Assembly (NCBI RefSeq): GCF_011045215.1 | Contig: NZ_CP049201.1 | From: Escherichia coli | Lineage (GTDB): Bacteria > Pseudomonadota > Gammaproteobacteria > Enterobacterales > Enterobacteriaceae | Length of the DNA: 64,000 nucleotides | Direction: 5' to 3' (one strand) | In this document: piece after piece, positions 55,862-57,725 of the stretch | How the letters are laid out: every line of letters starts with the position of its first letter | How positions within the stretch are numbered: position 1 is the first letter of the stretch | Translations under genes and position numbers: made by a program | Notes under the pieces: model-generated | Told to the model about the DNA's origin: nothing | The model's input: the letters and a program-made list of their open reading frames with translations, nothing else | Databases searched by the model: none

Positions 55862-56389
55862 TCATTGATGGTCTGATTTTTCCCATTCAGCCAGGGCGTT
55901 TAGCCCGGCTTCACTCCATGATTCCAGTTCATCGGCATAATCACCTGCAACATAGCAGAGTTCGCAACGCAGCATACGAATTGCCAGCCTGGCATTACCT
56001 CGCAAATTGTATTGTTCAAAGTAATGCTGCCCGTCGCAATCCTCAAGGCAGATAGCACCATCATCAAGAAAGTGCACTTCCCAGCCTAATTCCCCGGCTG
56101 CATCCAGCACACGCTGCTGTATGCCCTCGTCCGTTGCTGGCGCAGGAATTTTACCGTCTCTGGCCTTAACTGCTTTCCAGAACTCGCCCCACGTCATTTC
56201 CAGCGTTCTCTCTGGCCACATTTCAGAAACTGTGTCTTTTCCCTGTGCTGGTGGGCTGTTCCGCTGCTCTGTCGCTTCCACATCGATTTTTTTACCGGAC
56301 ATGACCACTTCGCCTTTCTCGATCCAGTCGTAAACTGTCTGGCGGCTTACGCCTTTGTGTTTGGCATATTCTGCCTTACTCATCAGCAT
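55862..56389 (-). CDS. HTH protein resembling phage small terminase subunit / packaging-redirection protein
   Basis: 175 aa; N-terminal MSKAEYAKHKGVSRQTVYDWIEKG helix-turn-helix typical of TerS-like proteins. Confidence 0.55.
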   Translation of the reverse strand: MLMSKAEYAKHKGVSRQTVYDWIEKGEVVMSGKKIDVEATEQRNSPPAQGKDTVSEMWPERTLEMTWGEFWKAVKARDGKIPAPATDEGIQQRVLDAAGELGWEVHFLDDGAICLEDCDGQHYFEQYNLRGNARLAIRMLRCELCYVAGDYADELESWSEAGLNALAEWEKSDHQ

Positions 56390-56395
56390 TATGAC

Positions 56396-57067
56396 TCACC
56401 CTTCTTTTTCCAGTTGAGCCAGCCGCCCGGATATTTCTTCCAGTTTTTCCAGGGCTGGCTTGCAGGCCGCATCAATAACGTCCCGGACCATTCCGGCAAG
56501 CTGCTCTTCTGCTGTCGGCGTTGTTACCTCCACACCCGATGGTTTCCCATCCTTATCCCATACGCCCAACGGTACGAGTGCAACGTGATCGATAAGAAAT
56601 GGCGTACCCTCAATAAAAAAATTGTCCTCGCCCATTACATCAGGAACTTCAGCCCCACCGGACGCACCACAAAACACAACCGACGGACTGGTGGATACCT
56701 CCCCCCGTGCTTTCTGGATGTAATCGATGATTTCCTGCCCGTAAATCCGGCATACGCCCCACACCTCGTCACCGCGAATATACGGCAACATGACGGTGCC
56801 AATAATGCGCGACCGTTCGCCCACGTCTTCAAGGGTTTTGCTTTCGGGATGGTCGATAATGACGGGTACTCCGGCGCAACGTTCCAGGAACTGCGGATTG
56901 AGATAAGTTTGCGGTGAACGCCAGACAAATTCTTTTTCTTCGGCGCGGTAGGCCATTCCGGTTCCTGTGATACGCAGGTTAACCAGCCACATGTTGGAAA
57001 ACTGATAAGGCGACGGTAGCTGTCCGTCCCGAATCTGCTTCGCCGCCTCAATTTCTGTTAAAAGCAT
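56396..57067 (-). CDS. Hypothetical protein (223 aa), element cargo or morphogenesis
   Basis: ORF with host-like GC, tightly spaced between neighbouring genes; no recognisable motif. Confidence 0.6.
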   Translation of the reverse strand: MLLTEIEAAKQIRDGQLPSPYQFSNMWLVNLRITGTGMAYRAEEKEFVWRSPQTYLNPQFLERCAGVPVIIDHPESKTLEDVGERSRIIGTVMLPYIRGDEVWGVCRIYGQEIIDYIQKARGEVSTSPSVVFCGASGGAEVPDVMGEDNFFIEGTPFLIDHVALVPLGVWDKDGKPSGVEVTTPTAEEQLAGMVRDVIDAACKPALEKLEEISGRLAQLEKEG

Positions 57068-57131
57068 AATGTTATCCGGTTATAAGCAATAAGCCCCGCC
57101 AAATCCGGCAGGGCTGAAATCAGCACGTTTT

Positions 57132-57725
57132 TCATGCCCCCGCGAGGCTTGCAACGTTAATTTTAACCAGGCGACGGGGAGGGATTTTGAAAGCACTAAG
57201 CCAGTTATTCGGATCTCCCTGATATTCAGTAATCCGCCGTCCGGCTTCATCCATTCTTACGGTTTTACGCAAATAGCCCGGCGTGTTTTCCACGGCCCAC
57301 TGAGCACTTTCCTGAGCAGCCTTGTAAATCTGATCTTCCAGCACCGCCAGCGTTGCAGAATCTGAAACGGAACGAATATCCACATCACTGAATTTTTTAG
57401 CCAGCTTCTGTGCACCAATTAATGCACGCTTGCGGTAATCCATCGACTTTTCACCAGCAAACGGGGCCGGAGCGCGACGGCCCATATTGCTGTATGCGGA
57501 ATCCGCTTTAGCCTGGGCTTCTGCCAGTGAGGATTCATCTTCGACTGACGCGACGATGTTTTGATTAGCGTTATCCTCGTCCGCTTTTGTGAAATCCTGC
57601 GCGGGGATCGCATTCAGCATTTCGATAATCTCCTGCGGAGTGCTGCCCTGCGACTCTGACAGAGCGTTAACCACCTCCATCAGTTTTAATCGCAAATCTT
57701 CTTTGCTTGCTGGCATTGTTACCAC
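57132..57725 (-). CDS. Hypothetical protein (about 194 aa), acidic N-terminal half
   Basis: ORF; probable start MPASKEDLRLKL; no recognisable motif. Confidence 0.55.
   Translation of the reverse strand: MVTMPASKEDLRLKLMEVVNALSESQGSTPQEIIEMLNAIPAQDFTKADEDNANQNIVASVEDESSLAEAQAKADSAYSNMGRRAPAPFAGEKSMDYRKRALIGAQKLAKKFSDVDIRSVSDSATLAVLEDQIYKAAQESAQWAVENTPGYLRKTVRMDEAGRRITEYQGDPNNWLSAFKIPPRRLVKINVASLAGA

What the first reader, a model, noticed from the sequence alone, without database searches (positions are those of the whole stretch)
55862..57725. Three-gene module: TerS-like HTH protein plus two proteins of unknown function
A 175 aa protein with a terminase-small-subunit-type N-terminal HTH follows 223 and 194 aa proteins without recognisable motifs, all co-oriented and closely spaced. 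In satellites this position typically encodes packaging-redirection or capsid-remodelling functions, but it could equally be cargo such as a defence or interference pair.
Basis: inference. Interest (0 to 1): 0.6.

Follow-up and report, generated by a model that had tools for sequence, protein, structure and literature searches.

The report
Satellite head-assembly and packaging genes
The last three genes of a phage satellite inserted in E. coli yifB are the two separated halves of its helper phage's head protease-scaffold protein, plus a terminase-like DNA-binding protein with its own array of binding sites. This is probably a new way for a Gram-negative satellite to take over capsid assembly and DNA packaging.

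Summary
The three ORFs are real, co-oriented on the minus strand and under purifying selection. They end a PICI-type satellite inserted in yifB (junction at 54961/2).

They form two units, not one.

Unit 1 is the 194-aa and 223-aa proteins.
- They are 54-63% identical to the C-terminal and N-terminal halves of one head-module protein of Rac-SA53-type myophages. That protein lies between the MuF-like gene and the major capsid gene.
- The satellite has split this gene, dropped the charged linker, reversed the order, and carries a hairpin between the two genes.

Unit 2 is the 175-aa protein.
- It has a near-invariant TerS/Xis-type winged helix and an orphan C-terminal domain.
- Six exact TTGACACTTT repeats lie just downstream.
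- The motif array accompanies this gene in five genera. Sister satellites carry true TerS genes in the same slot.

Best reading: a scaffold mimic and protease that hijack capsid assembly, plus an Rpp-like packaging specifier. The function is inferred, not shown. No defence homology was found. The database names "NUDIX hydrolase" and "TolA" are carry-over errors.

The parts
57132..57716 (-). P3, 194 aa (197 aa if the GTG at 57725 is used). It has a satellite-specific N-terminal region of about 45 aa, followed by a homologue of the C-terminal domain of the helper-type phage protease-scaffold protein.
   Evidence: ORF. phrog_6216 columns 402-544, E 2.7e-47. tblastn to the 3' part of Rac-SA53 'TolA/nudix' gene, 59% identity. 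Alignment. No NUDIX domain despite the database name. dN/dS 0.15-0.37.
57092..57115 (-). GC-rich hairpin (10 bp stem) in the 64-nt gap between P3 and P2. It looks like a terminator or attenuator.
   Evidence: Terminator-like hit. RNAfold gives -19.5 kcal/mol. A hairpin of different sequence occupies the same gap in satellites from E. mori, Pantoea and K. aerogenes, two of them with T-runs.
56396..57067 (-). P2, 223 aa. DUF2213 (PF09979, 'Pa193_gp24') domain with a prohead-protease (assemblin/T4 gp21) fold, plus a C-terminal helical tail. It is the homologue of the N-terminal half of the helper-type protease-scaffold protein.
55862..56389 (-). P1, 175 aa. N-terminal winged helix of TerS/excisionase/MerR type (residues 1-44), a flexible linker, and an orphan alpha/beta C-terminal domain (residues 60-170).
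55599..55855 (.). Array of six exact TTGACACTTT motifs (five direct, one inverted, mostly about 55 bp apart), interleaved with ACCTTA repeats. It starts 7 nt downstream of the P1 stop codon. It is the presumed P1 binding site and packaging-recognition site.
   Evidence: Six exact copies here and none elsewhere in the 64 kb. Repeat families D1-D4 and I2-I5. The same array is present in L001 and L004, and the variant AAAGTGT[CA]AAC occurs 3-8 times downstream of P1 homologues in Klebsiella, Enterobacter and Serratia. It is absent from sister satellites without P1 and from the head-module stretches of the phage loci examined.
57756..57929 (-). Small 57-aa ORF just upstream of P3. It is conserved in the same position in several sister satellites and may be part of the same transcription unit.
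   Evidence: ORF. Annotated in L001 and L004 and present in L013 and L015. No family hit.
58061..58091 (-). Strong intrinsic-terminator-like hairpin (12 bp stem) after perC. It marks the upstream limit of the late or packaging unit.
54961..54962 (.). Left junction of the satellite within yifB. Core-genome homology ends here.
   Evidence: Nearly all 5426 E. coli genomes match window 54600-54961 only. The yifB ORF has a foreign N-terminus. The same insertion is annotated as a truncated yifB in ETEC1748.

Best explanation
This is the late (morphogenesis and packaging) end of a PICI-type satellite. Its helpers are Rac-SA53-type myophages, whose head module resembles that of Pbunavirus/E217.

Shown:
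- The helper-type phages make one protein consisting of a prohead-protease domain (DUF2213), a helix, a long Glu/Ala/Lys-rich linker and a C-terminal domain. The gene lies between the MuF-like gene and the major capsid gene.
- The satellite carries both halves as separate genes in reversed order. The linker is deleted and a hairpin sits between the two genes.

Inferred:
- P3 is the capsid-directed C-terminal domain with a new N-terminus. It is made in excess and competes with or replaces the helper's protease-scaffold on the helper's coat protein. This diverts procapsid assembly to the satellite's benefit, most likely to smaller capsids that fit its genome of about 12 kb.
- P2 is a still-active protease uncoupled from the scaffold. 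It matures those particles or mis-processes the helper's.
- P1 binds the TTGACACTTT array through its winged helix. Its orphan C-terminal domain recruits the helper terminase, so the satellite DNA is packaged and the phage DNA is not. This would make it a functional analogue of Rpp or of a satellite TerS.
For: Satellite context: P4-type primase, ProQ/FinO and PerC upstream. The sister island has an integrase, an AlpA-type HTH and an Icd-like gene. The island is inserted in yifB.

P2 and P3 are halves of one phage protein: both hit phrog_6216. tblastn places them in one gene in 14 phage records. They align collinearly.

That gene always lies in the order TerL, portal, MuF-like, this gene, a 200-290 aa gene, MCP.

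Protease fold and conserved His/Ser/His.

The family's namesake, Pa193 gp24, is a virion protein. Its helix-turn-helix binds the capsid interior at the five-fold vertices, and it is proposed to be the scaffold (PMC11456595).

Helper link:
- In Pantoea the satellite abuts the 3' end of a Rac-SA53-like terL. A prophage head module follows, and its 438-aa protein is 55% and 63% identical to the satellite pair.
- At least 4 of the 15 listed E. coli genomes with the module also carry a Rac-SA53-type head module, against 89 of 5426 genomes overall.

Purifying selection on all three genes. The hairpin is conserved in position but not in sequence.

P1: TerS-type fold. The motif array co-occurs with P1 in seven loci and is absent where P1 is absent. 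In sister satellites the slot after P3-P2 holds two TerS-family genes.

Precedents: RppA-C (PMC6739421) and CpmB/Rcm scaffold mimics (PMC12409344).
Against: - No experiment bears on this island, so helper dependence, capsid size and packaging are all inferred.
- I could not map the capsid-binding helix-turn-helix of Pa193 gp24 onto P2 or P3.
- The conserved His/Ser/His were not verified as equivalent to the catalytic residues, because no model coordinates were available.
- P1 has no sequence similarity to Rpp or to the Rac-SA53 TerS.
- P1's best structural hit is an excisionase.
- Its C-domain matches nothing informative.
- The E. coli model PICI EcCICFT073 uses full-size capsids (PMC6739421), so size redirection is not the rule in Gram-negative PICIs.
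Confidence: 0.55

Rival explanations
1. Pure interference. P3 and P2 are dominant-negative fragments. They poison helper procapsid assembly or maturation, which protects the host population, without building satellite-specific capsids. The satellite would still ride in the normal-size heads that escape.
For: The homology is the same as for the main explanation. Free scaffold-domain and free protease fragments are plausible competitors. EcCICFT073 interferes without small capsids.
Against: The active-site-like residues and the whole fold are kept under strong constraint (dN/dS 0.0-0.17), which a simple decoy would not need. The pair always sits with a packaging-specificity gene in the transfer operon.
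Confidence: 0.2
2. P1 is not a packaging factor. It would be the island's excisionase (recombination directionality factor) or a transcription regulator, with the repeat array as its operator or arm-type sites.
Against: - The TerS family hit is stronger than the Cox/Xis hits (1.4e-7 against 3.5e-4).
- The island type already has an AlpA-type HTH next to int.
- The array lies 640-890 bp from the junction, far from where arm sites sit.
- Sister satellites carry bona fide TerS genes in the same slot.
Confidence: 0.15
3. The pair is a decaying remnant of a captured helper late gene and has no present function.
For: PICIs are known to capture helper late genes and then lose most of them (PMC10111431). 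The gene is split and rearranged.
Against: The same split, order, sizes and intergenic hairpin are kept in E. coli, Enterobacter, Pantoea and Klebsiella at 50-65% protein identity, with dN/dS of 0.07-0.2.
Confidence: 0.05
4. The genes are cargo, such as an anti-phage defence or toxin pair unrelated to morphogenesis, or a NUDIX hydrolase as the databases name the 194-aa protein.
For: RefSeq names the homologues 'NUDIX hydrolase' and 'TolA'.
Against: No PADLOC hit and no NUDIX domain in P3. The names come from phage homologues that have an extra N-terminal NUDIX domain and an EAK-rich linker, both missing here.
Confidence: 0.03

Closest known systems
Head protease-scaffold protein of Rac-SA53 / Chronis / PdC23 / YenM phages (phrog_6216; Pfam PF09979 DUF2213 = Pa193_gp24)
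   Same: P2 and P3 are direct homologues of its two halves: 54-59% identity to Rac-SA53 and 55-63% to a Pantoea prophage copy. The conserved His/Ser/His are kept.
   Different: The phage has one polypeptide with a Glu/Ala/Lys-rich linker of roughly 70 to more than 150 aa, and sometimes an N-terminal NUDIX domain. The satellite has two genes in reversed order, no linker, a new 45-aa N-terminus on P3 and a hairpin between the genes.
SaPI1 CpmB (with CpmA) and SaPIpT1028 Rcm, satellite-encoded internal scaffold mimics
   Same: A satellite protein resembling the coat-binding part of the helper scaffold, encoded in the packaging operon next to a TerS-type gene. The predicted outcome is capsid redirection plus interference.
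   Different: The staphylococcal proteins are small, all-helical and have no protease partner. They act on siphophage helpers. Their function is shown experimentally, whereas here it is only inferred.
RppA/B/C of E. coli PICIs (EcCICFT073 type)
   Different: No sequence homology. The C-terminal part is an alpha/beta domain, not the helical coiled-coil dimeriser. The helpers are not lambda/phi80 cos phages.
Capsid-forming PICIs (cf-PICIs)
   Same: Satellites that carry their own head-morphogenesis genes, including protease and scaffold.
   Different: cf-PICIs encode the full set (coat, portal, connectors, terminase). This island has only the split protease-scaffold pair and a DNA-binding protein, so it must still use the helper's coat and portal.
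Helper-embedded PICIs (HE-PICIs)
   Same: In Pantoea and Klebsiella, relatives of this satellite sit inside the late region of the presumed helper prophage, next to a truncated terL or a truncated capsid gene.
   Different: The island in this window is in the chromosomal gene yifB, and the described HE-PICIs target lambdoid late genes.

Membership tests
Prohead (capsid maturation) protease, assemblin/T4 gp21 fold; Pfam PF09979 DUF2213 | Sequence match to the family profile | tested here: met
   Pfam DUF2213 i-E 4.3e-6, residues 39-168. phrog_530 head maturation protease, E 5e-5.
Prohead (capsid maturation) protease, assemblin/T4 gp21 fold; Pfam PF09979 DUF2213 | Assemblin-like fold | tested here: met
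Prohead (capsid maturation) protease, assemblin/T4 gp21 fold; Pfam PF09979 DUF2213 | Catalytic Ser/His (plus a third residue) conserved and in position | tested here: inconclusive
   Ser125, Thr126, Ser127 and Pro128 are invariant. His73, Asp160 and His161 are at least 90% conserved in 30 satellite and phage sequences. Residue-level equivalence to the gp21/assemblin active site could not be checked.
Prohead (capsid maturation) protease, assemblin/T4 gp21 fold; Pfam PF09979 DUF2213 | Proteolytic activity on scaffold or coat | not testable with these tools
   Needs biochemistry.
Phage internal scaffolding protein / satellite scaffold mimic (CpmB, Rcm type) | Homology to the helper's scaffold or coat-binding region | tested here: met
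   P3 residues 42-190 are 59% identical to the C-terminal domain of the Rac-SA53 head protein. The family member Pa193 gp24 is seen bound inside the capsid.
Phage internal scaffolding protein / satellite scaffold mimic (CpmB, Rcm type) | Binds the major capsid protein and changes capsid size | not testable with these tools
   Needs two-hybrid or pull-down assays and electron microscopy.
Rpp (redirecting phage packaging) proteins | Sequence homology to RppA/B/C | tested here: not met
   phmmer against the PDB, which holds RppC (6hn7), found no Rpp hit at E up to 1.
Rpp (redirecting phage packaging) proteins | N-terminal lambda-TerS-like winged HTH | tested here: met
Rpp (redirecting phage packaging) proteins | C-terminal three-helix or coiled-coil dimerisation domain | tested here: not met
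   The model shows an alpha/beta domain with four strands.
Rpp (redirecting phage packaging) proteins | Heterocomplex with helper TerS that binds the island's packaging site | not testable with these tools
   Only the adjacent repeat array is seen.
Terminase small subunit | Full-length homology (DNA-binding, oligomerisation and TerL-binding regions) | tested here: not met
   Only residues 1-42 match phrog_57. No similarity to the Rac-SA53 TerS. No tblastn hit in 50,697 phage records.
PICI-type phage satellite | int, AlpA-type regulator, primase/replicase, then a packaging or interference operon, all one way; size about 10-15 kb; no structural gene set | tested here: met
   The window holds the primase, DUF4222-like small genes, ProQ and PerC. 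The sister island in EC11 shows int, HTH, Icd-like and primase in the same order. The int end lies beyond the window.
PICI-type phage satellite | Induction and transfer by a helper phage | not testable with these tools
   Only co-occurrence and embedding evidence is available.
NUDIX hydrolase (database name of the 194-aa protein) | NUDIX domain or box | tested here: not met
   No Pfam NUDIX hit. The NUDIX domain is an extra N-terminal domain of some phage homologues only.
Known anti-phage defence systems | Match to a PADLOC model | tested here: not met
   No hit for any of eight island proteins.

The most novel reading that the evidence does not exclude
A Gram-negative satellite redirects capsid assembly by a mechanism not yet described. 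It has cut its helper's protease-scaffold fusion into a scaffold-only protein and a free protease. It has reversed their order and placed an attenuating hairpin between them, so the scaffold mimic is made in excess. The pair would rebuild helper coat protein into satellite-sized, correctly matured capsids. A new Rpp-like adaptor (P1) would bind a six-site array and steer the helper terminase to satellite DNA.
Probability: 0.3. Interest if true: 0.75.

Novelty: new variant of a known kind. Interest (0 to 1): 0.6.

Why it matters
Capsid redirection and packaging redirection are the two core tricks of phage satellites. In Gram-negative PICIs, only Rpp (packaging, lambda-type helpers) and the cf-PICI strategy have been worked out.

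This module would give a third solution, for a different helper lineage: myophages with an E217/Pa193-like head. It would also show directly how a satellite evolves such a tool, by capturing, splitting and permuting a helper gene.

The island is common. About 3% of complete E. coli genomes have a match, and it also occurs in Salmonella, Citrobacter, Enterobacter, Klebsiella and Pantoea. Its proteins are mis-named in the databases.

Natural strains that carry both the satellite and a candidate helper were identified, so the hypothesis can be tested directly.

Tried and rejected
- PADLOC scan of eight island proteins: no hits. The defence reading was dropped.
- NCBIfam: nothing for P2 or P3.
- Rfam on 54-64 kb: nothing.
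- Sigma-70 promoter scan: fewer hits than in shuffled sequence and none near the module.
- PDB sequence searches with P1, P2 and the Rac-SA53 protein: no meaningful hits, and neither RppC nor Pa193 gp24 was recovered.
- Profile search with the mixed alignment: swamped by the NUDIX domain of the phage homologues.
- BFVD fold search with P1: only generic HTH and excisionase hits, none significant.
- Exhaustive HMMER search with the P1 C-domain: only its own narrow family, 18 clusters.
- tblastn of P1 against phages: no match.
- The names 'NUDIX hydrolase' and 'TolA' were rejected.
- Rpp family membership was rejected.
- The charged linker as a molecular ruler for capsid size was considered and rejected. 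Its length varies widely (alignment) among phages with the same 342-343 aa coat protein and 44-48 kb genomes.
- The repeat array as a P4-like replication origin or crr was considered. It tracks P1 and not the primase type.
- In Klebsiella and Serratia satellites, the proteins upstream of P1 (185/222 aa and 209/172 aa) are not P3/P2 homologues and hit no PHROG.
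Full report
**Observation.** The window is E. coli chromosome. Genes ilvY and yifB lie at 52.3-55.0 kb, and yifB has a foreign 5' end. Almost every complete E. coli genome matches window 54600-54961 and then stops. An island therefore begins at 54962 and runs past the end of the window.

Its genes are all on the minus strand:
- a 582-aa P4-family primase
- a ProQ/FinO-like protein
- a PerC-like regulator
- a 57-aa ORF
- the three ORFs of the finding: 57132-57716 (P3, 194 aa), 56396-57067 (P2, 223 aa) and 55862-56389 (P1, 175 aa)

The gaps between the three are 64 nt and 6 nt. The same 2 kb is found in other E. coli genomes: 165 of 5426 have a match and 20 carry all of it. 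In strain EC11 the island sits at another site and shows the full PICI layout: integrase, HTH regulator, antirepressor, Icd-like, primase, ProQ, PerC, then the three genes, then cargo. In ETEC1748 it is again in yifB.

**P2 and P3 are the two halves of one phage head protein.**
- Both match a single PHROG, phrog_6216. P2 covers columns 115-328 (E 1e-80) and P3 covers columns 402-544 (E 3e-47).
- tblastn finds both in the same 14 phage records and inside the same gene. P2 is 54% and P3 is 59% identical to Escherichia phage Rac-SA53.
- The alignment shows the phage protein's layout: an optional NUDIX domain, DUF2213, a helix, a long Glu/Ala/Lys-rich linker, and a C-terminal domain.
- P2 keeps the native N-terminus and stops where the linker begins. 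P3 has about 45 new residues and then runs to the native C-terminus.
- The satellite gene order (P3 then P2) is the reverse of the domain order in the phage.

The database names "TolA" for P2 and "NUDIX hydrolase" for P3 come from the linker and from the extra domain of the phage homologues. P3 itself has no NUDIX domain.

**What the phage protein is.** In Rac-SA53, Chronis, PdC23, the Shewanella phage QDWS and the Yersinia YenM phages, the gene always lies in the same place. The order is TerL, portal (DUF1073), MuF-like head-morphogenesis protein, this gene, a 200-290 aa gene, and a 342-343 aa major capsid protein. That is the classical slot for a protease-scaffold gene.

- P2 matches Pfam DUF2213 and, weakly, head-maturation-protease PHROGs.
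- I built an AlphaFold model of an artificial P2+P3 concatenation in the phage order. Mean pLDDT is 80, and the P2 domain is mostly 80-95.
- Ser125-Thr-Ser127-Pro is invariant, and His73 and Asp160-His161 are at least 90% conserved, across 30 satellite and phage sequences. From general knowledge, this recalls the Ser/His/His triad of assemblins. I could not verify residue equivalence.
- PF09979 is now named Pa193_gp24. In Pseudomonas phage Pa193, gp24 is a virion protein. Its helix-turn-helix (residues 286-326) forms pentamers bound to the capsid interior at the five-fold vertices, and it is proposed to be the scaffold. The next two genes encode the decoration and coat proteins (PMC11456595).

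**The split is a maintained design, not decay.**
- Satellites in Enterobacter mori, Pantoea agglomerans and Klebsiella aerogenes have the same two genes, in the same order and of the same sizes, at 50-65% protein identity.
- dN/dS is 0.0-0.17 for P2 and 0.15-0.37 for P3.
- In all five satellites examined, the short P3-P2 gap contains a GC-rich hairpin. Its sequence differs between them, and in two cases it has a clear T-run.
- The gap leaves no room for a promoter. P2 and P1 must therefore be read through this hairpin, which would give more P3 than P2. This last step is inference.

**Who the helper is.**
- In Pantoea, the satellite is followed directly by the last 111 codons of a Rac-SA53-like terL (80% identity). 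Then come the portal, the MuF-like gene, a full-length 438-aa DUF2213-C-domain protein, a 208-aa gene and the coat gene. The satellite P2 and P3 are 55% and 63% identical to that resident protein. This looks like a helper-embedded satellite.
- In Klebsiella, relatives sit next to a truncated major capsid gene followed by E217-like neck and tail genes.
- In E. coli, a Rac-SA53-type head module occurs in 89 of 5426 genomes. It occurs in at least 4 of the 15 listed genomes that carry the full satellite module (EC11, A17, JNU, ETEC6335). The expected number is about 0.25. My binomial estimate gives P of about 1e-4, and only 60 of the 89 genomes were listed, so 4 is a lower bound.

**P1 and its DNA array form a separate unit.**
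- P1's model (pLDDT 89) has a winged helix at residues 1-44, a flexible linker and an alpha/beta domain.
- The C-domain has only weak dsRBD-like similarity, nothing significant among viral models, and only 18 related clusters in 1.84 billion representatives.
- Across 45 homologues from Enterobacterales, the HTH is almost invariant while the C-domain varies. That pattern is expected for a conserved DNA site paired with a co-evolving protein partner.
- Starting seven nucleotides after the P1 stop codon there are six exact TTGACACTTT motifs within 257 bp. None occurs elsewhere in the 64 kb.
- The 9-mer AAGTGT[CA]AA clusters just downstream of P1 homologues in seven loci from E. coli, Klebsiella, two Enterobacter species and Serratia, with 3-8 copies each.
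- The motif cluster is absent from the two sister satellites that lack P1 and from the head-module stretches of the phage loci I examined.
- In Klebsiella, Serratia and E. hormaechei, P1 occurs without P2 or P3.
- Conversely, in the Pantoea and K. aerogenes satellites the slot after P3-P2 holds two true TerS-family genes: 113 aa (PF20901, phrog_1482) and 275-288 aa (phrog_370).
- The array follows P1, not the primase type, so it is not the replication origin.

**Mechanism proposed.**

Shown:
- the homologies, the fold and the conserved residues
- the synteny
- purifying selection
- the co-occurrence of the motif array with P1
- the links to the helper

Inferred:
- P3 acts as a scaffold mimic on the helper coat protein, as CpmB and Rcm do in staphylococcal islands (PMC12409344).
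- P2 supplies maturation protease activity uncoupled from the scaffold.
- The result is procapsids that favour the satellite. They are probably smaller, given an island of about 12 kb against helpers of 44-52 kb.
- P1 binds the array and recruits the helper terminase. This resembles Rpp, which pairs with lambda TerS and retargets it to the PICI cos site (PMC6739421).

**Rivals.**
- Pure interference without size change is quite possible. EcCICFT073 uses full-size heads.
- P1 could be an excisionase or regulator. This is less likely because of the TerS genes in the same slot, the AlpA-type gene next to int, and the 640-890 bp distance of the array from the junction.
- A decaying remnant is contradicted by conservation and dN/dS.
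- Cargo or a NUDIX enzyme is contradicted by domain content and by PADLOC.

**Comparison with what is known, and novelty.** P2 belongs to PF09979 and has the prohead-protease fold. P3 is a homologue of the C-terminal domain of the same phage protein. P1 is not a member of the Rpp family or of any TerS family. It has no sequence homology to them and a different C-terminal fold, but it has the same architecture logic and genomic position.

The paper library returned nothing on DUF2213 in satellites or on this module. I therefore rate it a new variant of a known kind: satellite capsid and packaging hijack. It is built by splitting and permuting a helper gene, and the function is untested.

Noticed in passing
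window 53598-55001 (-) and 54961/2: yifB (comM-like Mg-chelatase ATPase) is interrupted near its 5' end by the satellite. The ORF continues with a foreign N-terminus. The same insertion is annotated as a truncated yifB in ETEC1748.
   Followed up: partly
window 58415-58957 (-) and 58131-58418 (-): The island encodes a ProQ/FinO-family RNA chaperone-like protein and a PerC-family regulator just upstream of the module. PerC homologues on PICIs have been linked to repression of the LEE pathogenicity island (PMC11773190).
   Followed up: no
window 57092-57115; L013 8939-9000; L014 8950-9000; L015 8945-9000: A GC-rich hairpin lies between the two split genes in every satellite examined. The sequence differs but the position is the same, and two copies look like classic intrinsic terminators. 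This suggests regulated read-through, perhaps by helper antitermination. The K. aerogenes island carries an Antiterm-domain gene.
   Followed up: partly
window 55197-55320 and 55028-55051: A second set of short direct repeats (CGTGAC / ATCGT motifs, and a tandem ATTAACTACACC x2) lies close to the island junction. They may be integrase arm-type or recombination sites.
   Followed up: no
window 55387-55566 (-): A conserved 59-aa ORF lies between the repeat array and the junction. It is annotated in sister islands, and only its last 25 residues hit PHROGs of unknown function.
   Followed up: partly
L009 6045-7500 and L012 5557-7946: In Klebsiella and Serratia satellites, the slot upstream of the P1 homologue holds orphan proteins of similar sizes (185 and 222 aa; 209, 404 and 172 aa). 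They have no similarity to P2 or P3 and no PHROG hit. They may be analogous hijack modules for other helpers.
   Followed up: partly
L003 3599-5212, L005 3625-5286, L006 3515-5362 (phage loci): Some helper-type phages fuse a genuine NUDIX hydrolase domain to the N-terminus of the head protease-scaffold protein. An enzyme domain delivered into the procapsid is unusual and unexplained.
   Followed up: no
E. coli genomes: RefSeq names the DUF1073 portal protein of Rac-SA53-type prophages 'anti-CBASS protein Acb1 family protein'. This looks like another questionable name transfer.
   Followed up: no
window 5000-12000: A 7-kb stretch has about 31% G+C in a roughly 51% background. It is probably a horizontally acquired cluster and was not examined.
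   Followed up: no
window 62765-63967 (-) and 63153-63878 (+): A 400-aa minus-strand ORF overlaps two plus-strand small genes that hit PHROGs (phrog_6522, phrog_21027), so it is probably spurious. The plus-strand genes suggest a divergent regulatory region of the island.
   Followed up: no
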